From sequence record PZ445431.1: a DNA stretch of 64,000 nucleotides. The stretch is one strand, 5' to 3'. Shown in pieces: positions 6,957-20,867 of this stretch (the stretch's first letter is position 1; the number at the start of each line of letters is the position of its first letter). This DNA comes from a phage. Position numbers and translations under genes: made by a program. The notes under the pieces were generated by a model. The model had not been told where the DNA came from, did no database searches, and was given only the letters and a program-made list of their open reading frames with translations.

Positions 6957-7472
6957 TTGATAACACAAGATGAATTAAAAAGGATTCTGGAGTATAATCC
7001 AGATGAAGGAACATTTACTTGGTTAAATAACCAAGAAGTACACAATAAAGTAAGAGGACTACCTGCTGGTTGTTTAAAACCCCACTCAGTAGATCCTAAC
7101 CGAAAAGACTTAGTAATACAAATCAATGGTAAGAAATATCCTGCACAAAATATTGCTTTCCTGTACATGACAGGAAACTTACCTAAAGTTATGGTTGATC
7201 ATATAGATGGAGATTCACTAAACTATAAGTGGACTAATCTAAGAGAAGCAGACTGGCAGTTAAATAGTCAAAATAGAAAAACCAGTAAAAACAATATATT
7301 GGGTACTAAGAATATTCGGAAGAAAGGGTCTGGATTTCAAGTTAGAAAATCCATTAACGGAAAAGAATACGTGAAAACTCTTCCAACTCTCGAAGAGGCG
7401 ATAGAGTATCGAGATTCTTTAATCCTCTCTATAACCAAAGACCCAACACTACTTAGAAACACAGATAAATAG
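6957..7472 (+). CDS. HNH homing endonuclease with AP2-type DNA-binding domain (free-standing, between nrdA and nrdB)
   Basis: N-terminal ELK..LEYNPDEG.F.W motif, DHIDGD...N...NLR HNH core, AP2-like SGFQVRK..NGKEY; TTG start after AAGGAG; paralogous to 28254, 39420, 41576. Confidence 0.8.
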   Translation: MITQDELKRILEYNPDEGTFTWLNNQEVHNKVRGLPAGCLKPHSVDPNRKDLVIQINGKKYPAQNIAFLYMTGNLPKVMVDHIDGDSLNYKWTNLREADWQLNSQNRKTSKNNILGTKNIRKKGSGFQVRKSINGKEYVKTLPTLEEAIEYRDSLILSITKDPTLLRNTDK

Positions 7473-7480
7473 GAGAACTA

Positions 7481-8626
7481 ATGACAACTTTACTTAACTT
7501 AAACTGGGATCATACCAATAAAGATCTATTTCTCGGTGATTCTCTTGGTATTGCAGATTATGTACGAGTAGCTCATCCAGAGCTAGAAAGGCTGGCGTTA
7601 TTAGCTCGCTCTCAATTCTGGACTGAAACTGAAATCAGTCTGGAAGCTGATAAGAAACAATGGCCAAACCTTCCGCGTGATATTCAGGAAATTACTCTCC
7701 TGAACTTAGCATGGCAGACCCAAACAGATTCTTTCATTAGCCGTGCTCCTGAAGCAGCTATTATGCCGCTTGTAAGCCGTCCTGAATTGGAGGGTATGCT
7801 CAAGCAGTGGAGCTACTTCGAAGATCTGCATAGCCGTGCATATAGTAACATTATTCGTAACGTTCTGACTGATCCAGCAGAATTTATTGATTCTGTAACT
7901 AAAAACCAAGAAGCATTTGCACGTATCGCAGATTCTGTTGAACTGTTTGATGAATTGTATCTGTTAGGTCAGTATTTCCTTGCAGTACGTGATCATCGTG
8001 GTGATAATACTTATCCAGAAACTGAGTTCCCTGAAGTTAAACGTGAAACTCAGGCTAAGCTGTTAGATGCTTACTTTGCAATCTACGGTCTGGAAGCAAT
8101 GCAGTTCTACGCATCCTTTGCATGTACCTTTGCTCTAGCAGAGAACGATATTCTGCAAGGTATTGCCAAGAACCTGCAACTAATCGCTAAAGATGAAGCT
8201 CTACATACTCAAATGTCTAAAGCTATCATCCAGATTATGTTCCAGCAGTTTGATAAAGATCTGGTAGACGAAGCATTAGCTAAAGCACCAGCACAACTCC
8301 TAAAAACTCTGAAAACTGAGATTGAATGGGGCCACTTTATCTTTAAAGGCCGCAGTCTGATTGGTTTGAACGCAGAATTGCTTGAAGAATACCTTTACTT
8401 TGTAGGACGTAACGCATTTATGCACATTGGTGTAGAATGGCCAAGCCACTTACCTGTAATTACTAAGAACCCTATTCCGTGGATTATGAACTGGCTGGAT
8501 ACTACTTCCTTACAGCCTGCCCCACAAGAAATCCAGATTGGTGCAGCATATCGTGTGGGTCAGGTAACTGAAACTTCTGCTGATACCCTGAAAGATCTGG
8601 GTAACGAATTTGAGGGCATGTTCTAA
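7481..8626 (+). CDS. nrdB: ribonucleoside-diphosphate reductase small subunit (class Ia)
   Basis: 381 aa, di-iron RNR small-subunit layout, directly downstream of nrdA. Confidence 0.85.
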   Translation: MTTLLNLNWDHTNKDLFLGDSLGIADYVRVAHPELERLALLARSQFWTETEISLEADKKQWPNLPRDIQEITLLNLAWQTQTDSFISRAPEAAIMPLVSRPELEGMLKQWSYFEDLHSRAYSNIIRNVLTDPAEFIDSVTKNQEAFARIADSVELFDELYLLGQYFLAVRDHRGDNTYPETEFPEVKRETQAKLLDAYFAIYGLEAMQFYASFACTFALAENDILQGIAKNLQLIAKDEALHTQMSKAIIQIMFQQFDKDLVDEALAKAPAQLLKTLKTEIEWGHFIFKGRSLIGLNAELLEEYLYFVGRNAFMHIGVEWPSHLPVITKNPIPWIMNWLDTTSLQPAPQEIQIGAAYRVGQVTETSADTLKDLGNEFEGMF

Positions 8627-9156
8627 TGATAGCAGCAATCTATGCAACTGGGCCGAATGGGGAGTTCGGCCTCAATGGTAAGCTCCCCTGGGGTTCTTTC
8701 AAAGAAGAACTAGATATCTTCTATACTACTTTGGATTCTCTAGCACCTGATAATATTATTGTAGGTGCAGGAACTTGGTTAGCCTTCCCTGAGACTCTGC
8801 AAAAAAGAATACTAGGAGATTCTGACCTATTTATTTATGCAAATAGATCACTACCTAACTCTGTAGGATCAGCTACACGCATAAGCAACATTGGATACCG
8901 TCTGCCTGATTTTCTCAAGGAAGAGGTAACTGTAGTATTAGGGGGAGCAACTCTGCTTCTTGAAATGTATGTCAAAAATCATCTAGATATGGCGTATATC
9001 TCTACTATTACTTCAGCCACACCATTATCTGCTGATGTACATCTGCATCATCATATTACTTTAACTAATTCAATGGCAACTAGAATGGACTATGTGGCAG
9101 GACAGAATGCAGATAAAACGCTTTCATTCTTACAAGAATTGGTGATATTTAAATGA
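8626..9156 (+). CDS. frd: dihydrofolate reductase
   Basis: N-terminus [22 protein letters not shown] matches the DHFR signature; sits between nrdB and thymidylate synthase. Confidence 0.75.
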
Positions 9157-10007
9157 AGCAATATATTGAAACTGGAAAACGTATTCTTGAAGAGGGTGTA
9201 TGGGTAACGAATCCTAGAACAGGGGTTCGTTGCCTAACCATTATTGATGCAGACTTTACCTTTAACGTAGGAGCAGGAGAACTGCCGCTAGTAACTACTC
9301 GTAAAGCATTTGCTAAACAAGCAATAATGGAAATGATCGGATATCTCCGTGGGTACGACTCAGCAGCACAATTCCGCGCTATTGGTGTTAATACATGGAA
9401 TGCTAATGCAAATGAAAATATTGCCTGGCTAGGTAATCCATTCCGTAAAGGCGAGGATGATATGGGACGAGTCTATGGTGTTCAAGGACGTCATTGGACT
9501 AATTCTGATGGTATGGTATTTGATCAGTTAGCCAAAGTCTATCATAATTTGAAAAGAGGGATTGACGATCGTGGAGAAATTTTAACTTTTTGGAACCCTG
9601 GGGAATTTCGTAAAGGATGCCTACGTCCGTGTATGCATACCCATCAATTCTCTATTTTAGGTGATACACTATACCTAAACTCTTTCCAGAGGTCTAATGA
9701 TTTCTTGCTGGGCCAAGTATTTAATATGGTGCAATGCTATGCACTTCTAGCTATTATGGCACAGATTACAGGTCTTAAGCCAGGTATTGCTCGTCAAAAG
9801 ATTATTAATCTTCATATCTATGAAGATCAGTATAATGTTCTGATGGAGCACAAGCAATTCGATCGTGAACCTTTTGCACCTCCTACTTTAGAAATCAATC
9901 CAAATATTAGAACTTTGGATGATGTATTAACGTGGGTAAGTAAGGATGATTTTACTGTTCGTGGCTATGAACACCATCCTGCTATTGCATATCCATTTAC
10001 GGTGTAA
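9153..10007 (+). CDS. thyA: thymidylate synthase
   Basis: MKQY start, [14 protein letters not shown] (active-site Cys region), [24 protein letters not shown]; collinear with E. coli ThyA. Confidence 0.9.
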
Positions 10008-10055
10008 CATATATTAATTATACTATTATTTGTCATATTCTTTCTAAAACATTTT

Positions 10056-10364
10056 ATGGCCGATTATCCACTCCAAACACCATATATGCTAAAAAAGACG
10101 CATAAAATAGGGTGGAAACTTCCATTATTAACCCATTCGCTAGTACATGCTGGATTAACATTTGCAATTCTAATCCTATTCACATCACCAGGAATGTCTA
10201 TAGCTTTAGCTATTATGGAATTAATTCTACACTTTATTATAGATTATTGGAAAGCACAACGCTGTAAATACGCTATAAGCGATGCTAAGTTTTGGATAGC
10301 TTTAGGATTTGATCAGTTACTGCATTATCTGACATACGCCCTAATAATCTTGATTATAATCTAA
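10056..10364 (+). CDS. hypothetical membrane protein
   Basis: Highly hydrophobic 102 aa ORF; start may be the internal ATG near 10086. Confidence 0.5.
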   Translation: MADYPLQTPYMLKKTHKIGWKLPLLTHSLVHAGLTFAILILFTSPGMSIALAIMELILHFIIDYWKAQRCKYAISDAKFWIALGFDQLLHYLTYALIILIII

Positions 10365-10368
10365 TTCA

Positions 10369-10394
10369 AATAGCCCTTCGGGGCTATTATATTT
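10369..10394 (+). terminator. rho-independent terminator
   Basis: TAGCCC-TTCG-GGGCTA hairpin followed by T-rich tract. Confidence 0.7.
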
Positions 10395-10403
10395 AAATTT
10401 CAT

Positions 10404-10432
10404 TTGCTTACTGAGTGAAATTCAAATATAAT
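10404..10432 (+). promoter_or_regulatory. T5-type early promoter
   Basis: TTGCTT 10404-10409, TATAAT 10427-10432. Confidence 0.65.
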
Positions 10433-10462
10433 ATACTTCTAATTTGACAGAAGGATTTAATA

Positions 10463-11041
10463 ATGACAGCCATAGTAGCATTTAAATATAAAGATAAAGT
10501 ATACTTAGCCGGTGATCGTATGGGTTCTAATGGCTATACGAAACTGCTGGTTAAAAATCCGAAAGTATTCAAAATCTCTGATGATTTGTGCTTCGGATAC
10601 ACTAGTTCCTTCTACATGGGACAATTACTAGAGCATAGCTTTACTGTACCACCACGTTTAGCAGATATTTCTGATGATAAATATTTATATACGGAAATAG
10701 TACCTAAATTACGTGATATGTTTAACCAGAAAGATTTTGGCGAAAAGAAAAATGAAAAATATGCTGAACCTAATCTGGGACAATTTATTATGCTCTACAA
10801 AGGAAGAATCTTTATTTTCCAATCTAATGCTTCTATTCTAGAAGTTGAATATGCCGGTGTAGGCTGTGGAGGAGAAGATGTACTTTCCAGTATTCGTACA
10901 GGTTTAGCTATTGCGGATTGTCGAGCCACAGATTTAGATGTAGATGATATATTTGAAATCATTGATCTGGCTTTTACGCATTGTGCAGATTATATGTGTG
11001 GTGTATCTTCTCAACATGATATTTTAGTAATTGGAGAATAA
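10463..11041 (+). CDS. putative Ntn-hydrolase, HslV/proteasome-beta-like peptidase
   Basis: N-terminal MTAIVAFKYKDKVYLAGD (Thr2 after Met, as in HslV TTIVSVRR..V.IAGDGQ) and later YAGVGCGGEDV resembling the HslV GSGG motif; similarity judged by eye. Confidence 0.4.
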   Translation: MTAIVAFKYKDKVYLAGDRMGSNGYTKLLVKNPKVFKISDDLCFGYTSSFYMGQLLEHSFTVPPRLADISDDKYLYTEIVPKLRDMFNQKDFGEKKNEKYAEPNLGQFIMLYKGRIFIFQSNASILEVEYAGVGCGGEDVLSSIRTGLAIADCRATDLDVDDIFEIIDLAFTHCADYMCGVSSQHDILVIGE

Positions 11042-11043
11042 AT

Positions 11044-11313
11044 ATGTCTATTCTTTTATCTGCTTTAGAAGCAAAACAAAATACTATTGCTAGCATTAAA
11101 AAGGAAGTAATTGACCTAGAATCACTTATTGCCGTAGAGATTGACAAAGCTATTAAAGATAAAGAATTTAATTGTCACATCCAGGGATTAACTGAATACT
11201 CAGAAAACGCTAGAAATAGCGTCATGCAAAAACTTAGCAAACTAGGTTATGTTGTAGAAGCTAAGTATGAACAGCGTGAAGGTTTTTGGCTTGAAATTGA
11301 TTGGAGCAAATAA
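11044..11313 (+). CDS. hypothetical protein (89 aa)
   Basis: ORF coupled to upstream gene. Confidence 0.5.
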   Translation: MSILLSALEAKQNTIASIKKEVIDLESLIAVEIDKAIKDKEFNCHIQGLTEYSENARNSVMQKLSKLGYVVEAKYEQREGFWLEIDWSK

Positions 11314-11789
11314 TGTCGGTTTTCCACATATATACAGATGGTGCATGTAAAGGCAATCCTGGTTTAGGTGCGTGGGGATTCGTTGTCTATAATGATAATG
11401 ATGATCGTATTGGCTCTAAATCTGGCTTCAGCCCTAAAACTACTAATAACGAAATGGAACTTACTGCAATTGTAGAAGTTCTTCGTTGGTCTACTAAGAA
11501 AGATAATCGTCCAGTAATTATCTACACTGATTCTGCTTACTGCAAAAATGGTATGGAAAGCTGGATGTGGTCTTGGCAGAAGAAAGGCTGGAAGAAGGGA
11601 GATGGTGAAACCCCTCTTAATCTAGAACTCTGGCAAGAAGCATTTAAACTAACCCAACAGTACATTAACTTCCATGATACCAATCCAACCTTTGTTAAGG
11701 TTAAAGGTCACTCAGGTATTCGTGGTAATGAAGAAGTTGATGCTCTATGCAATACTGTAATTACTGAGCAAGAACTTGCTGAGATGTAA
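11301..11789 (+). CDS. rnh: ribonuclease H
   Basis: RNase HI motif HIYTDGACKGNPGLGAWG and downstream catalytic acidic residues; true start probably ATG near 11313. Confidence 0.85.
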   Translation: MEQIMSVFHIYTDGACKGNPGLGAWGFVVYNDNDDRIGSKSGFSPKTTNNEMELTAIVEVLRWSTKKDNRPVIIYTDSAYCKNGMESWMWSWQKKGWKKGDGETPLNLELWQEAFKLTQQYINFHDTNPTFVKVKGHSGIRGNEEVDALCNTVITEQELAEM

Positions 11790-11809
11790 TAAATAAATTA
11801 AAAATTCAC

Positions 11810-11838
11810 TTGCTTAAAGCCCTCGAATTTAGTATAAT
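11810..11838 (+). promoter_or_regulatory. T5-type early promoter
   Basis: AAAATTCACTTGCTTAAAGCC...TAGTATAAT; -35 at 11810, -10 at 11833. Confidence 0.7.
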
Positions 11839-11865
11839 ATTCGTATTGAAAGTGAGGAGGGCTTT

Positions 11866-12144
11866 ATGCGAATTTACAACTCAAATTCATTAGGATTTAA
11901 ACCTTTGAGAAAACGCGCACAATCTCCGCGTCAGATCAGAAAGGCAAATATTGGTGAGCCAGAAACTAGGCTTCCACCACCTCCGGAGCAACGTCTAGTT
12001 TACCTAGATGAAGAGTTAGCCGAAAGGGAACGCAAAGCTCAAGAAGAAATTGAGCGTAAGAAACTGTGTACTGCTCCTGCGTATAACAAGGGTGGTTATC
12101 AATACGTTTCCAGTGAGGAACAAGCTAAGATGATCGGCAGATAA
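11866..12144 (+). CDS. hypothetical protein (92 aa)
   Basis: ORF directly after a consensus early promoter with GAGGAGG RBS. Confidence 0.55.
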   Translation: MRIYNSNSLGFKPLRKRAQSPRQIRKANIGEPETRLPPPPEQRLVYLDEELAERERKAQEEIERKKLCTAPAYNKGGYQYVSSEEQAKMIGR

Positions 12145-12160
12145 TTTTTAAAAAATTCAT

Positions 12161-12189
12161 TTGCTAAACGCTTCAAAATTTAGTATAAT
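12161..12189 (+). promoter_or_regulatory. T5-type early promoter
   Basis: TTGCTA 12161-12166, TATAAT 12184-12189. Confidence 0.7.
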
Positions 12190-12227
12190 ATATCTCATAA
12201 ATTGATCAACAAAAAGGAAAACAAATA

Positions 12228-12743
12228 ATGGCTAAGCAGAAAAACGCAAAAACTCAGGCAGCTCCGGCAGTTAAAACTTTCGCTCAGACCGAAGCCAATC
12301 GTAAGGCTCGTCTGGAACGTCATCTGCGTAAGCATCCTAGCGATGCTCAGGCTCAGACTGCTCTGAAGTCTCCGGTTCCGATTCGTCAGAAGCCGAAGGC
12401 TAAGAACTCCACTCGCGCAACTGCTAAGCAGGTTGTGTTCATCAAGGGTGAAGGTCATAAGTCTGTACCGGTAACTCTGAGCTTTAACGGAGGTGCTGAG
12501 ATGTTCGCCCGCAACGGTATGGCTCTGAAAGATTACGAAAAAGCAGTCAATCAGAAGCGTAAGCCAATGGCTGACGTAATGCGTGAATCCCGTGGACAGT
12601 TTGGCTCCGTTAAACCGAATATCTTCGGGGTAGAGTATAGCCGTGACAACGTTCGCGCTCTGTGCTATGGTATCGGTATTAAGTTTACTGGTGCTTCTGA
12701 TCGTAAATCCACTAAACCTGCTCGTAAGCGTAAAGCGAAGTAA
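12228..12743 (+). CDS. hypothetical basic protein (171 aa), probable highly expressed early protein
   Basis: Lys/Arg-rich; codon choice dominated by CTG/CGT/AAA; consensus promoter upstream and GNRA-loop hairpin terminator downstream. Confidence 0.6.
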   Translation: MAKQKNAKTQAAPAVKTFAQTEANRKARLERHLRKHPSDAQAQTALKSPVPIRQKPKAKNSTRATAKQVVFIKGEGHKSVPVTLSFNGGAEMFARNGMALKDYEKAVNQKRKPMADVMRESRGQFGSVKPNIFGVEYSRDNVRALCYGIGIKFTGASDRKSTKPARKRKAK

Positions 12744-12749
12744 TGATTG

Positions 12750-12767
12750 ATGGGGCGAAAGCCCCAT
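12750..12767 (+). terminator. hairpin terminator with GAAA tetraloop
   Basis: ATGGGGC-GAAA-GCCCCAT perfect 7 bp stem. Confidence 0.6.
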
Positions 12768-12804
12768 ATACTAACTCTTTCTCTGACTAATTAAGGATAT
12801 TTTT

Positions 12805-13020
12805 ATGTTCTCTAAGAAACCACGTTCCGTTACTGAAATCGTTGCTTCCTTTACCACTATTACTGATGAACTTCAAGCTCGTATTGAAGCTGACCAGAAA
12901 ACTGCTGCTGATATTCAGAAACAGCAGGAAGAACTCGCTCTGAAACTGGCTGAAACCAATAAGAGTGAAAAATCTGCTCAAACTATTAAGGAAAATATCC
13001 TTAAACTGCTGGGCAAGTAA
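12805..13020 (+). CDS. hypothetical protein (71 aa)
   Basis: ORF with AAGGA RBS between two GAAA-tetraloop hairpins. Confidence 0.55.
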   Translation: MFSKKPRSVTEIVASFTTITDELQARIEADQKTAADIQKQQEELALKLAETNKSEKSAQTIKENILKLLGK

Positions 13021-13027
13021 TTTAAAT

Positions 13028-13052
13028 CAGGGGGCGAAAGCCCCTCTTATTT
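13028..13052 (+). terminator. hairpin terminator with GAAA tetraloop
   Basis: GGGGGC-GAAA-GCCCC followed by TCTTATTT. Confidence 0.6.
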
Positions 13053-13061
13053 GGAGAAACT

Positions 13062-13274
13062 ATGCGTAACTTCGTTGCAAAGAATGATTTTAACCGTGCT
13101 AGCACTCACAAGTCTGCTAGAGACTACACTCGTCTTTCTAAACATGAGCTTCTAGAAGAAATCATGGAAGAAAACTGGGATGTTAGTGAAAATGGAACAG
13201 ACCTGTTTGAAGAAGGGGAACTTCCTCTGAAAGACCCCAAACAGTGGGAGTCTATTAAAGAGACAGCTCTTTAA
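13062..13274 (+). CDS. hypothetical protein (70 aa)
   Basis: ORF with GGAGAAA RBS. Confidence 0.5.
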   Translation: MRNFVAKNDFNRASTHKSARDYTRLSKHELLEEIMEENWDVSENGTDLFEEGELPLKDPKQWESIKETAL

Positions 13275-13304
13275 TAGTTTTCTACAACAATAAAGGACAT
13301 AATT

Positions 13305-14006
13305 ATGAAATTCAAGCCCTTTGGTATGCTGGACATTGAATCTCTAGGTACTCCAGGAAATTGCGGTACTACTCATATTGCAATGCCTTCTTTCGCTTTT
13401 GTAGCGATGCACGGAATTGATAAAGATCCTGATCTGGTATTCGTTACTCTAGACGTTCAAGATCAGCTTAATGCGGGTGCTAAGGTAACTGCCTCTACTA
13501 TTGCATTCTGGATGGATCAAGCTAAAAACAGTCCATCTGCGCTCCATATTATGGAGGCTCTAAATGGTCGTAATCCTAAACTGATTGCCTTCCGTGATGG
13601 TAAGCATCACTGCACTAATGACGTAGGCTCTAATTATGCTGCCTTCTCTATGGCTCAGAACATTATGGAATTGTCTCTAGGAGATAATGCTCTGTATTAC
13701 GGCAATGGCCCAGAGTTTGATATGACTATCTACTCTGCAAATACGTTCCATGCCGGAACCCATGAAGAAGTAGTTCCGTGGAAATTCTGGAACTTAGGTA
13801 ATGTTCGATCTTTCCGTAATCAATGGATGCAAGCTGGTTATAGTTATAAAGATCTAGAAGCCGAAGGTGCTAGCTGGGCAAAAGCTAAAATGGAAAAGAT
13901 GGATACCATTCGTTATGGAATCTATCCAGTTAAACATGATCCAGCATTCGATGCTTTAGTTGAAAGTTATTGTGTAGCCATCATGATCGAAAAAATCAAA
14001 ATTTGA
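13305..14006 (+). CDS. putative DEDDh-type 3'-5' exonuclease-like protein
   Basis: Exo I-like MLDIESLG near N-terminus and C-terminal H-x4-D (KHDPAFD); weak, motif-only. Confidence 0.35.
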   Translation: MKFKPFGMLDIESLGTPGNCGTTHIAMPSFAFVAMHGIDKDPDLVFVTLDVQDQLNAGAKVTASTIAFWMDQAKNSPSALHIMEALNGRNPKLIAFRDGKHHCTNDVGSNYAAFSMAQNIMELSLGDNALYYGNGPEFDMTIYSANTFHAGTHEEVVPWKFWNLGNVRSFRNQWMQAGYSYKDLEAEGASWAKAKMEKMDTIRYGIYPVKHDPAFDALVESYCVAIMIEKIKI

Positions 14007-19752: not shown

Positions 19753-19781
19753 TTGCTTGAATGCTAAATTCTCTGTATAAT
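19753..19781 (+). promoter_or_regulatory. T5-type early promoter upstream of nadR-like gene
   Basis: TTGCTT 19753-19758, TATAAT 19776-19781. Confidence 0.7.
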
Positions 19782-19811
19782 ATATTTATAAATTTGAGAG
19801 AGGAATCAAAT

Positions 19812-20867
19812 ATGATTAAGACTGGTCTAGTAATTGGTAAGTTCGCACCATTAACACGTGGTCATATTAACCTAATAAACACAGCAGCAACTATGTGTGA
19901 ACGAGTTATAGTTGTAGTTAGTCATGATAATCGCTGGCTGGATAAACAAAACACACGTGATCAGGAAGTCTTACAGTTAAAGAACCGACTTCGTTGGTTA
20001 GAACAAACTTACGCGGATATTGAGCACATTTCGGTAGAGTACATTATTGAAGATGATATTCCTGAATATCCGAATGGTTGGCCGGAATATGCTAGAATAC
20101 TTAATGAAAATTATGGACATTTGCCTGAGATCACCATTTTCTCTAGCGAACTAGACTATGATGCAGAATATAAGAAATATCTGCCGAAGTTTGGTCATTA
20201 TATTGTAGATTCTGATCGGACTCGTGTTCCAATCTCAGCTACAATGATTCGTAATGATCTTATGAAGTATTGGGAGTTTCTTCCTAGCGTAGTTCGTAAA
20301 GATTACGTGCGTAAGGTTGTAATCATTGGGACTGAAAGCTCGGGAAAGACTACTTTAACAAAATACCTTGCGAAGCTATACAACACTTCGTGGGTAGAAG
20401 AATATGGTCGAACGTATTGTGAAGTTGATCTAGTTGGTAACGAAAATCTGCTTACCAGCGAAGATTATAGTAAAATTGCGTTCAGACACAAAGAGCTAGA
20501 GTTTGAAGCAGAACGTACTGCAAATAAGATCATGTTTGTGGATACAAATGCTTTTATTACTGAGTTCTACCACAGACTTTATGAACATAGTAAGAATCCT
20601 GTGGTTACAGCAATTGCAAAAGAAGAACATTATGATTTAGTAATTGTTCTAGCGCCTACTGTCAAGTGGGTAGATGATGGTTTACGTATTAACTCCGATC
20701 GTTCAATTACTTCTGAACTGTTCGAGCAGATGAAGAAAGAATTTCCAAATCAGTTCCCTGAAGGGCGTACTGTTTACATCGACTCTCCGGACTACAAAGT
20801 TCGTATGGACGAAGCAGTAAACGCAGTAGACTGGCTGATTCATCACTTTAACGTTGGAGAGTTTTAA
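19812..20867 (+). CDS. nadR: NadR-like bifunctional NMN adenylyltransferase / ribosylnicotinamide kinase (no HTH domain)
   Basis: GKFAPLTRGHINLI nucleotidyltransferase motif and VVIIGTESSGKTTLTKYLAKLYNTSWVEEYGR P-loop closely matching NadR; start ATG 19812 after conserved leader GAGAGAGGAATCAAAT. Confidence 0.8.
   Translation: MIKTGLVIGKFAPLTRGHINLINTAATMCERVIVVVSHDNRWLDKQNTRDQEVLQLKNRLRWLEQTYADIEHISVEYIIEDDIPEYPNGWPEYARILNENYGHLPEITIFSSELDYDAEYKKYLPKFGHYIVDSDRTRVPISATMIRNDLMKYWEFLPSVVRKDYVRKVVIIGTESSGKTTLTKYLAKLYNTSWVEEYGRTYCEVDLVGNENLLTSEDYSKIAFRHKELEFEAERTANKIMFVDTNAFITEFYHRLYEHSKNPVVTAIAKEEHYDLVIVLAPTVKWVDDGLRINSDRSITSELFEQMKKEFPNQFPEGRTVYIDSPDYKVRMDEAVNAVDWLIHHFNVGEF

What the first reader, a model, noticed from the sequence alone, without database searches (positions are those of the whole stretch)
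10463..11041. HslV/proteasome-beta-like Ntn-hydrolase encoded by the phage
N-terminus MTAIVAFKYKDKVYLAGD places a Thr right after the initiator Met, as in HslV, and a later YAGVGCGG segment resembles the HslV GSGG loop. A phage peptidase subunit that could dock onto the host HslU unfoldase would be a way to redirect host proteolysis.
Basis: inference. Interest (0 to 1): 0.55.

Follow-up and report, generated by a model that had tools for sequence, protein, structure and literature searches.

The report
Phage proteasome-like threonine peptidase gene
This T5-like phage gene does encode a small proteasome/HslV-type protease with an intact active site, but public databases already label it as such, it is optional for the phage, and nothing supports the idea that it plugs into the host's HslU motor.

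Summary

It is not HslV. The curated HslV models that score E. coli HslV at 288-304 bits do not match it at all. It is 19% identical to an HslV profile. Seven of eight published HslU-pocket and pore residues are not retained, and it has extra residues in the apical loop and pore loop. Relatives are commonest in Streptomyces and alpha-proteobacteria, which fits the "AAH" group described in 2021. No AAA+ gene lies near any of 160 related loci.

The gene is an accessory cassette under a conserved early promoter and is missing from close relatives. UniRef already calls it "Proteasome subunit"; RefSeq orthologs are "peptidase HslV family". I found no functional study. The likeliest mechanism is a stand-alone, propeptide-less, self-assembling peptidase. 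The fold claim is supported; HslU docking is not.

The parts
10370..10387 (+). Hairpin ATAGCCC-TTCG-GGGCTAT followed by a T-rich tract. It is the likely terminator of the upstream thy/DUF3307 transcription unit and forms the left part of the conserved 79-bp element.
   Evidence: Read directly from the sequence. The element 10360-10438 is 93-99% conserved in T5-like phages even where the flanks differ. The automatic terminator scan did not list it, so this is inference.
10404..10432 (+). Sigma-70-type promoter of the kind T5 uses: -35 TTGCTT (10404-10409), 17-nt spacer, -10 TATAAT (10427-10432).
   Evidence: Read directly from the sequence. The scan requires 4 of 6 matches in the -35 hexamer and so skipped it. 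Homology with phages that lack the gene ends at 10438, about 6 nt after the -10. The promoter function is inferred and not shown.
10439..11043 (+). Swappable cargo cassette: the 5' UTR plus the peptidase gene. Salmonella phage S126 has 272 bp of unrelated DNA here, and phage GreteKellenberger has an 84-aa gene (phrog_17630).
   Evidence: blastn breakpoints; annotations.
10451..10455 (+). Shine-Dalgarno sequence AAGGA, 7 nt before the ATG.
   Evidence: Read directly from the sequence.
10463..11041 (+). CDS of 192 aa: a proteasome-beta/HslV-superfamily N-terminal-threonine peptidase (bas30_0067), probably of the AAH clade.
10466..10468 (+). Codon for Thr2, which becomes the catalytic nucleophile Thr1 after removal of the initiator Met. 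There is no propeptide.
   Evidence: Thr is invariant in 168 of 168 family sequences, and 159 of 167 start 'MT'. It aligns with Thr1 of HslV and 20S beta. Met removal is inferred from the known specificity of methionine aminopeptidase and from the mass-spectrometry result for BPH in PMC5777263.
10514..10516 (+). Codon for Asp18, equivalent to proteasome Asp17.
   Evidence: Invariant in 168 of 168 sequences; aligned with HslV Asp17.
10562..10564 (+). Codon for Lys34, equivalent to proteasome/HslV Lys33.
   Evidence: Invariant in 168 of 168 sequences; aligned with HslV Lys33.
10595..10624 (+). Family signature G-Y-T-S-S-F-(R/Y)-M-G-Q (residues 45-54). Its first Gly aligns with HslV Gly45. The HslV 'GGTA' segment is deleted here.
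   Evidence: Conservation; alignment. This motif was the search pattern that retrieved 387 bacterial and 362 viral relatives.
10730..10783 (+). Long pore loop between helix H2 and strand S7 (residues 90-107, KDFGEKKNEKYAEPNLGQ).
   Evidence: Secondary structure of the model. The loop is 9-10 residues longer than in HslV. The measured segment (residues 89-107) has a family median of 16 residues and a median net charge of -1.5. The comparison with BPH and HslV pore loops comes from PMC5777263.
10856..10873 (+). G-V-G-C-G-G loop (residues 132-137), equivalent to the HslV GSGG and 20S GSGS loops. Cys135 takes the place of HslV Ser124 / 20S Ser129.
   Evidence: Alignments. The family has Cys in 104, Ser in 53 and Ala in 6 of 168 sequences at this position.

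Best explanation
The gene encodes a propeptide-less N-terminal-threonine (Ntn) peptidase of the proteasome-beta / HslV / BPH superfamily. It belongs to a large, mostly phage- and prophage-borne clade that most likely corresponds to the 'AAH' group of Fuchs, Alva and Lupas (2021).

Proposed mechanism:
- The gene is transcribed early, from its own conserved T5-type promoter, together with the nucleotide-metabolism and replication genes (inferred).
- Host methionine aminopeptidase removes Met1, so the free amino group and hydroxyl of Thr1 form the nucleophile. Asp17 and Lys33 complete the catalytic triad, and Gly44 and Cys134 occupy the positions of HslV Gly45 and Ser124 (residue identities are shown; the chemistry is inferred from the family).
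- Like its nearest structural relatives, it probably self-assembles into a homo-oligomeric ring or double ring with internal active sites, and cleaves peptides or unfolded proteins without a dedicated ATPase and without host HslU (inferred).

The gene is an optional accessory of T5-like phages, not a core function. Its substrate is unknown.

For: Active site: Thr1, Asp17, Lys33 and the Gly equivalent to HslV Gly45 are invariant in 168 of 168 relatives. The Ser124 position is Cys in 104 and Ser in 53. 159 of 167 sequences start 'MT'.

Purifying selection: full-length conservation holds down to about 30% identity. There are 6,683 cluster representatives at E<=1e-3 and 818 at E<=1e-30.

Independence from HslU: there is no hit to the HslV equivalog models, while the E. 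coli HslV control scores 288-304 bits. Seven of eight HslU-interface and pore residues are not retained. The pore loop and the apical loop are both longer than in HslV. Of the best 80 bacterial relatives, 38 are Actinobacteria, 19 alpha-proteobacteria and 13 Myxococcota. No AAA+ gene and no other conserved neighbour was found in 160 loci. The only weak HslU-like hit in the window is a NadR-like kinase/adenylyltransferase.

Accessory status: the protein is present in 126 phage records at >=90% identity, out of about 409-449 T5-like records that share the flanking DNA. It is precisely replaced in S126 and GreteKellenberger.
Against: No oligomer could be modelled and no coordinates were available, so ring formation is only an analogy. 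BPH, the closest structure, showed no activity on standard substrates in vitro and its function is unknown (PMC5777263), so 'stand-alone protease' is not an established activity even for the nearest relative. The AAH assignment rests on taxonomic distribution and architecture, not on direct clustering with the authors' sequence set. Every named host of phages carrying close relatives (Escherichia, Salmonella, Enterobacter, Aeromonas, Vibrio) has HslU (from my general knowledge, not tested here), so host distribution does not exclude use of HslU. The residue mapping in the helix H2 / pore region comes from low-confidence parts of a 19%-identity alignment, and two alignments differ there. The phmmer probe with one HslU sequence could miss very divergent ATPases.
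Confidence: 0.6

Rival explanations
1. One reading: the phage protein forms HslV-like hexameric rings that dock onto the host HslU unfoldase. This creates a hybrid ATP-dependent protease, or competes with host HslV, and so redirects host proteolysis.
For: The protein shares the superfamily and catalytic apparatus of HslV. Among PDB sequences, the best hit of the family profile is T. maritima HslV, E=5e-6. The host E. coli encodes hslVU. The phages encode the peptidase-like gene without any HslU, as already remarked for a Salmonella jumbo phage (PMC7823757). Phe54 of the HslU-tail pocket is retained.
Against: It fails the curated HslV models that real HslV passes and is only 19-21% identical to HslV. 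Lys28, Phe57, Gln114, Lys80 and the Arg86/Arg89/Lys90 cluster are not retained, although they are invariant or nearly so in gamma-proteobacterial HslV. There are insertions on the apical H1-H2 loop, where HslU sits, and in the pore loop. The family thrives in Streptomyces, a phylum without HslV per PMC8665760. BPH, the closest structure, likewise lost the HslU interface and forms heptameric rings (PMC5777263).
Confidence: 0.12
2. It is a sequence-specific processing enzyme, either a peptidase or a connectase-like transpeptidase. It would act as a monomer or small oligomer on one host or phage target, for example to inactivate a host defence or stress protein early in infection.
Against: The protein lacks the connectase-type S3/S4 helical insertion and retains helices H1-H4, which mediate ring and inter-ring contacts (PMC8665760). 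There is no PADLOC match and no conserved partner or target gene nearby. No experimental hint was found in the literature.
Confidence: 0.2
3. It is catalytically inert, acting as a structural protein or decoy that only mimics a proteasome subunit (for instance by poisoning host HslV rings or titrating a host factor), or it is a decaying remnant.
For: The gene is dispensable in close relatives. Serine is replaced by cysteine in the GSGG loop.
Against: The nucleophile and triad are invariant in 168 of 168 sequences, and the Met-Thr start is kept in 159 of 167, which is not expected for a non-enzyme. Cys and Ser interchange freely at position 135. The ORF is intact and 95-100% conserved across more than 120 phage genomes.
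Confidence: 0.05

Closest known systems
[quoted passage not shown]
   Same: It is a compact subunit of about 180-190 aa with helices H1-H4, no H5, no propeptide and no insertions, carrying Thr1/Asp17/Lys33. Its bacterial relatives are concentrated in Actinobacteria (Streptomyces) and alpha-proteobacteria, with some Firmicutes, and many copies are in phages. AAH is likewise uncharacterised experimentally.
   Different: Direct clustering with the authors' AAH set (representative WP_035979212) could not be done, so the assignment is probable and not shown. Myxococcota are also prominent among relatives. The T5-like branch has Tyr instead of the family's usual Arg in the signature (F-Y-M-G-Q rather than F-R-M-G-Q) and Ala instead of Cys after Thr1.
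BPH (Betaproteobacteria proteasome homolog; PDB 5ovs/5ovu; PMC5777263)
   Different: Sequence similarity is marginal (profile E=4e-3, 12-18% identity). The BPH pore loop is strongly acidic, whereas this one has net charge 0 and the family median is -1.5. BPH is a chromosomal gene of Betaproteobacteria, not a phage gene. The 14-mer state of BPH was not tested for this protein.
HslV (ClpQ), the peptidase of the HslVU protease
   Same: It shares the superfamily and the Met-Thr start with Thr1/Asp17/Lys33/Gly45, and it has a GxGxGG loop equivalent to GSGG. This is the label used by PHROG 1040 and RefSeq for the orthologs.
   Different: It fails both curated HslV equivalog models and is 19% identical to an HslV profile. 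The HslU-tail pocket and basic pore cluster are not retained. It lacks the 'GGTA' segment before H1, and has about 8 extra residues in the H1-H2 loop and 9-10 extra in the pore loop. Ser124 is Cys.
20S proteasome beta subunits (bacterial, archaeal, eukaryotic)
   Different: There is no propeptide, no H5/S12 C-terminal elements and no alpha-subunit partner. NCBIfam 20S models score 13-16 bits against cut-offs of 192-224. The position of the 20S Gly47 region is taken by the GYTSSF motif (by-eye register, inference).
[quoted passage not shown]
   Same: These are also phage-encoded proteasome-like genes and are lumped into the same PHROG 1040.
   Different: PPH is about 140 aa and lacks helix H2 (PMC8665760), whereas this protein is 192 aa with H2 present. 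The 294-aa Aeromonas/phAPEC8-type paralog has canonical GSGS and DxxSGG motifs and an acidic C-terminal extension, and it does not occur in T5-like phages.

Membership tests
Proteasome-like Ntn hydrolase superfamily (Pfam PF00227 / MEROPS T1) | Significant match to the family profile above the curated threshold | tested here: met
   PF00227 E=1.8e-9, 38 bits against a gathering score of 22.4, residues 2-187.
Proteasome-like Ntn hydrolase superfamily (Pfam PF00227 / MEROPS T1) | Alpha-beta-beta-alpha Ntn sandwich fold of a proteasome beta subunit | tested here: met
Proteasome-like Ntn hydrolase superfamily (Pfam PF00227 / MEROPS T1) | Catalytic Thr1 at the mature N-terminus, with Asp17 and Lys33 | tested here: met
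   Thr2, Asp18 and Lys34 (precursor numbering) are invariant in 168 of 168 relatives and align to HslV Thr1/Asp17/Lys33. Actual Met removal and catalysis were not tested.
HslV (ClpQ) proper | Scores above the cut-off of the curated equivalog models NF003964 / TIGR03692 | tested here: not met
   There is no hit at E<=1, whereas the E. coli HslV control scores 303.8 and 288.2 bits against cut-offs of 137 and 157.75.
HslV (ClpQ) proper | HslU C-terminal-tail pocket residues (Phe54, Phe57, Gln114, Lys80 per PMC6429459; Lys28 from my memory of Sousa et al. 2000) | tested here: not met
   Only Phe54 is retained. Phe57 is Gly, Gln114 is Glu, Lys80 is Asn and Lys28 is Leu, while all are invariant in 19 HslV sequences. 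Caveat: the mapping relies on a 19%-identity alignment.
HslV (ClpQ) proper | Very short H2-S7 pore linker with a basic Arg86/Arg89/Lys90 cluster (PMC5777263) | tested here: not met
   The loop is 9-10 residues longer than in HslV, the aligned residues are Glu/Asn/Glu or Lys/Gly/Glu depending on the alignment, and the family loop has a median net charge of -1.5.
HslV (ClpQ) proper | Dodecamer of two hexameric rings that binds hexameric HslU, with ATP/HslU-stimulated activity | not testable with these tools
   No multimer prediction or biochemistry was available.
HslV (ClpQ) proper | Genomic pairing with hslU | tested here: not met
   No HslU/AAA+ relative is found in the window (the only weak hit is NadR-like) or within 6 kb in 160 related loci. 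The first 50 kb of the phage genome lie outside the window and were not scanned.
BPH | Elongated, highly acidic pore loop | tested here: inconclusive
   The loop is elongated (residues 90-107) but not highly acidic: net charge is 0 here and the family median is -1.5.
BPH | Sequence membership in the BPH cluster | tested here: not met
   The family profile against the BPH sequence 5ovu gives E=4e-3 and 19.9 bits, no better than 20S beta or HslV. Identity in structural alignments is 12-18%.
BPH | Tetradecameric (7-fold) double ring | not testable with these tools
   No multimer modelling was available.
AAH (Fuchs et al. 2021) | Group I architecture: compact, H1-H4 present, no insertions, no S12/H5, no propeptide | tested here: met
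   Secondary structure of the model; 'MT' start in 159 of 167 sequences.
AAH (Fuchs et al. 2021) | Taxonomic distribution: most abundant in Actinobacteria and alpha-proteobacteria, and also in phages and Firmicutes | tested here: met
   The best 80 of 387 bacterial relatives comprise 35 Streptomyces, 3 other Actinobacteria, 19 alpha-proteobacteria, 13 Myxococcota, 5 beta-proteobacteria, 3 Firmicutes and 2 others. There are also 362 relatives in viral contigs.
AAH (Fuchs et al. 2021) | Clusters with the authors' AAH sequences (representative WP_035979212) in CLANS/HHpred | not testable with these tools
   The authors' sequence set and that accession could not be fetched.
PPH (Fuchs et al. 2021) | About 140 residues, lacking helix H2 | tested here: not met
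   The protein is 192 aa, and H2 (residues 71-89) is present at high confidence.

The most novel reading that the evidence does not exclude
The peptidase is a phage counter-measure or host-takeover cargo. It would be a stand-alone viral mini-proteasome, expressed from a fixed early promoter in a gene-swapping slot, that destroys a particular host protein (for example a defence or stress-response factor) without needing any ATPase. A variant of this reading is that it hijacks a host unfoldase through an interface unlike that of HslV. Either would be the first demonstrated function for any phage-encoded proteasome homolog and for the AAH group.
Probability: 0.15. Interest if true: 0.7.

Novelty: already known. 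Interest (0 to 1): 0.3.

Why it matters
Proteasome-like proteases encoded by phages have been catalogued (PMC8665760) and are routinely annotated, but I found no functional test of any of them in the searched literature. This T5-like copy sits in a tractable E. coli K-12 phage from the BASEL collection (Bas30), and natural sister phages lack the gene (e.g. Bas26, GreteKellenberger). That makes it a convenient system for asking what a viral proteasome homolog does and whether it needs a host unfoldase. For the present scan the result is mainly a clarification. The fold call is right but not new, the common database label 'HslV family' overstates the relationship, and the HslU-hijack idea is not supported by sequence, structure or gene context.

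Tried and rejected
- Second paralog: I looked for a second proteasome-like subunit in the window that could form a hetero-oligomer. An hmmsearch of all six-frame ORFs found none. The tandem paralog seen in Aeromonas phage 4L372D occurs in only 5 of 80 viral loci and never in T5-like phages.
- Downstream gene: I considered the translationally adjacent 89-aa gene (11044-11313, phrog_13270) as a partner. I rejected this because the gene is retained in phages that lack the peptidase.
- Conserved neighbours: all-against-all clustering of ORFs from 160 related loci found no real neighbour in more than 15 loci. The top two clusters are antisense shadow ORFs of the gene itself. The next two appear, by eye, to be an HK97-type prohead protease and a portal protein.
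- AAA+ partner: a phmmer search with E. coli HslU gave 0 hits in the 160 loci. The single weak hit in the window (19761-20864) is a NadR-like CTP_transf_like + AAA_28 protein.
- Defence-system membership: there is no PADLOC hit.
- C-terminal extensions: the 250-390-aa family members gave no informative Pfam domain.
- Direct assignment to Fuchs et al. subgroups: the supplement holds only two figure legends, and accessions cannot be fetched.
- AFDB fold search: the library was unavailable.
- Literature: searches for experimental work on phage or AAH proteasome homologs found only genome-annotation remarks.

Full report
**Identity of the window and the ORF.** Window 7000-14000 is 100% identical to Escherichia phage TrudiRoth (Bas30, MZ501109.1; Demerecviridae, Epseptimavirus, a T5-like phage). 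Window position x equals record position x+49991. The finding's coordinates match an ORF exactly: 10463..11041, + strand, ATG start, 192 aa. It is annotated there as bas30_0067 'hypothetical protein'. An AAGGA Shine-Dalgarno lies 7 nt upstream of the ATG, and no earlier in-frame start exists. The gene lies in the early region, in this order: nrdA, a homing endonuclease, nrdB, dihydrofolate reductase, thymidylate synthase, a DUF3307 membrane protein, this gene, an 89-aa gene, then RNase H.

- The N-terminus and the YAGVGCGG segment are as quoted.
- Pfam PF00227 (Proteasome) matches residues 2-187 with E=1.8e-9, at 38 bits against a gathering score of 22.4.
- PHROG 1040 'peptidase HslV family' matches with E=3e-21.
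- An AlphaFold2 model built on 19 homologs is confident (pLDDT 91, pTM 0.88). It has the strand and helix order of a compact proteasome beta subunit, with four helices and no fifth.
- Foldseek TM-scores are 0.71 for BPH and 0.63 for HslV.

**Active site.** I aligned 168 sequences: the query plus the homologs and cluster representatives returned by the database searches.
- Thr2, Asp18, Lys34, Gly45, Gly106 and Gly134 are invariant, and 159 of 167 sequences begin Met-Thr.
- After Met removal these residues are Thr1, Asp17 and Lys33, the same numbering as in the 20S proteasome and HslV. They align to those residues in HMMER and HH-suite alignments.
- The Cys of GVGCGG aligns with HslV Ser124. Across the family this position is Cys in 104, Ser in 53 and Ala in 6 sequences.
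- A strictly conserved signature, G-Y-T-S-S-F-(R/Y)-M-G-Q, follows the Gly that aligns with HslV Gly45.
- These patterns argue for an active enzyme and against a decoy.

**It is not HslV.**
- The NCBIfam equivalog models NF003964 and TIGR03692 score genuine E. coli HslV at 303.8 and 288.2 bits (cut-offs 137 and 157.75). They give no hit for the phage protein at E<=1, and only 14-23 bits for other family members.
- BLASTP against host HslV is not significant.
- Family profile against the single E. coli sequence gives E=2.7e-5 at 21% identity. Against a 19-sequence HslV profile it gives 97.5% probability, E=8.8e-12 and 19% identity over 166 columns. That is clear homology, but remote.
- Against PDB sequences, the family profile scores T. 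maritima HslV (5e-6), mycobacterial 20S beta (1e-3), BPH (4e-3) and E. coli HslV (0.065) at weak, broadly comparable levels.

**Test of the HslU-docking idea.** Published descriptions give HslV residues that accommodate the HslU C-terminal tail: Phe54, Phe57 and Gln114, with Ala79/Lys80 nearby (PMC6429459). They also describe a basic pore cluster, Arg86/Arg89/Lys90, that responds to HslU, and a very short pore linker in HslV in contrast to a long loop in BPH (PMC5777263; PMC8665760). Lys28 I add from my own memory of the H. influenzae HslUV structure.
- All of these residues are invariant or nearly so in gamma-proteobacterial HslV.
- In the phage protein only Phe54 has a counterpart. The others map to Leu, Gly, Glu and Asn and to non-basic loop residues.
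- Relative to HslV the protein has about 8 extra residues between helices H1 and H2 (the apical face) and 9-10 extra in the pore loop. It lacks four residues before H1.
- The mapping in the helix H2 and pore region is uncertain, because two alignments differ there. Neither alignment yields a basic cluster, and across the family the loop has a median of 16 residues and a net charge of -1.5.

**Distribution and context.**
- The profile finds 6,683 cluster representatives at E<=1e-3 among 1.84 billion proteins. A scan with the signature peptide, confirmed by tblastn, finds 362 relatives in IMG/VR viral contigs.
- A scan of one genome per prokaryotic species found 387 relatives. The best 80 are 35 Streptomyces, 3 other Actinobacteria, 19 alpha-proteobacteria, 13 Myxococcota, 5 beta-proteobacteria, 3 Firmicutes, 1 gamma-proteobacterium and 1 planctomycete.
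- This matches the 'AAH' group of Fuchs, Alva and Lupas. They describe AAH as most abundant in Actinobacteria, present in many phages, compact and without a propeptide. Their Table 1 lists no HslV in Actinobacteria (PMC8665760).
- PPH, their other phage group, is about 140 aa and lacks helix H2, so it does not fit.
- Among ORFs from 160 related loci (±6 kb) no neighbour is conserved, and none resembles HslU or other AAA+ proteins.
- The single weak HslU-like hit in the window is a NadR-like enzyme. PADLOC gives nothing.

**Accessory status and cassette structure.**
- tblastn finds the protein at >=90% identity in 126 phage records, all T5-like. DNA of the flanking genes matches 409-449 records.
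- Salmonella phage S126 is collinear up to window 10438 and again from 11044, with 272 unrelated bp in between. GreteKellenberger (Bas26) keeps only the 79-bp element 10360-10438 and carries an 84-aa gene instead.
- That 79-bp element contains a hairpin with a T-tract (10370-10387) and a TTGCTT-17-TATAAT promoter (10404-10432). Both were read by eye, and the automatic scan did not list them.
- The homology break lies about 6 nt after the -10 hexamer. Alternative cargo genes therefore appear to be exchanged under one fixed early promoter. This is inferred from the sequence comparisons and is not supported by transcript data.

**What is already known.**
- The exact protein is in UniRef as 'Proteasome subunit ... 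Escherichia phage TrudiRoth'. Orthologs are named 'peptidase HslV family', 'putative proteasome', 'proteosome subunit' or 'protease'.
- BFVD holds at least 27 viral proteins with this fold.
- A second, distinct proteasome-like lineage occurs in Phapecoctavirus-type E. coli phages and in Aeromonas and Vibrio phages.
- Phage genome papers have noted HslV-like genes without HslU (PMC7823757) or BPH-like genes (PMC8953757).
- I found no experimental study of any phage or AAH homolog.

**Mechanism and verdict.**
- Shown: the protein is a proteasome-family Ntn fold with a complete, strongly conserved Thr1/Asp17/Lys33 site and no propeptide. It is remote from HslV, closest in structure to BPH, optional for the phage, and has no linked ATPase.
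- Inferred: Met1 is removed to expose Thr1. The protein self-assembles into rings like HslV (12-mer) or BPH (14-mer). It has ATP-independent peptidase activity on peptides or unfolded proteins early in infection.
- I put this stand-alone model at about 0.6. A specific processing or counter-defence enzyme gets about 0.2, the HslU-docking model about 0.12, and an inert decoy about 0.05.
- The finding is a correct fold call on a gene that databases already label this way, so novelty is low. The open question of what phage proteasome homologs do remains interesting and is easy to test in this phage.

Noticed in passing
window 10360-10438: A 79-bp element, consisting of a hairpin terminator plus a TTGCTT-17-TATAAT promoter, is conserved at 93-99% in many T5-like phages even where both flanks differ. 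Homology between phages breaks about 6 nt after the -10 hexamer, so different cargo genes (this peptidase, an 84-aa gene, or 272 bp of other DNA) sit under one fixed promoter.
   Followed up: partly
window 10056-10364: The upstream 102-aa DUF3307 membrane protein (phrog_2470, category 'moron/host takeover') is also variably present. It is kept in S126, absent in GreteKellenberger, and varies independently of the peptidase gene.
   Followed up: partly
L003 4001-5454 (Aeromonas phage 4L372D, NC_048771.1 127736-129189): There are two adjacent proteasome-like genes. One is a 183-aa ortholog of the finding. The other is a 294-aa paralog with canonical TTIAYK start, GSGS and DVYSGG motifs and an acidic C-terminal extension. 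They could form a two-subunit phage 'proteasome'. The paralog type also occurs in Phapecoctavirus-like E. coli phages but not in T5-like phages.
   Followed up: partly
window 19761-20864: This 367-aa ORF has CTP_transf_like + AAA_28 domains, making it a NadR-like NMN adenylyltransferase / ribosylnicotinamide kinase (NAD salvage) encoded by the phage. It produced a weak false lead as an HslU-like ATPase.
   Followed up: partly
window 13305-14006: The gene is annotated 'putative metallopeptidase' in the TrudiRoth record, but it matches the Pfam Rv2179c-like 3'-5' exoribonuclease domain (E=1.2e-7), and some RefSeq relatives call it 'exonuclease'. The peptidase label is probably wrong.
   Followed up: no
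window 6957-7472: A putative homing endonuclease gene is inserted between nrdA and nrdB (annotation of MZ501109.1).
   Followed up: no
window 11044-11313: An 89-aa protein (phrog_13270, unknown function) starts 2 nt after the peptidase stop codon and is followed immediately by RNase H. It is retained in phages that lack the peptidase.
   Followed up: partly
public records matched: Near-identical T5-like sequences are deposited as 'Campylobacter phage A148', 'Listeria phage LM 4-11-1', 'Obesumbacterium phage Ob_P', and as proteins of Brucella melitensis and Citrobacter freundii on contigs of about 113-115 kb. These are probably phage contamination or mislabelled hosts.
   Followed up: no
proteins P0031, P0036, P0041, P0046, P0059, P0074: Some family members are 300-390 aa long, with C-terminal extensions that match no Pfam family. 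These may be fusion partners that could hint at function.
   Followed up: partly
L166 10880-11563 and L147 4569-5903, with 13 and 8 similar loci respectively: In a minority of prophage-like loci the family gene lies about 2.5 kb upstream of what appear, by eye, to be a portal protein and an HK97-type prohead protease. That places it at the edge of the head-morphogenesis module.
   Followed up: no
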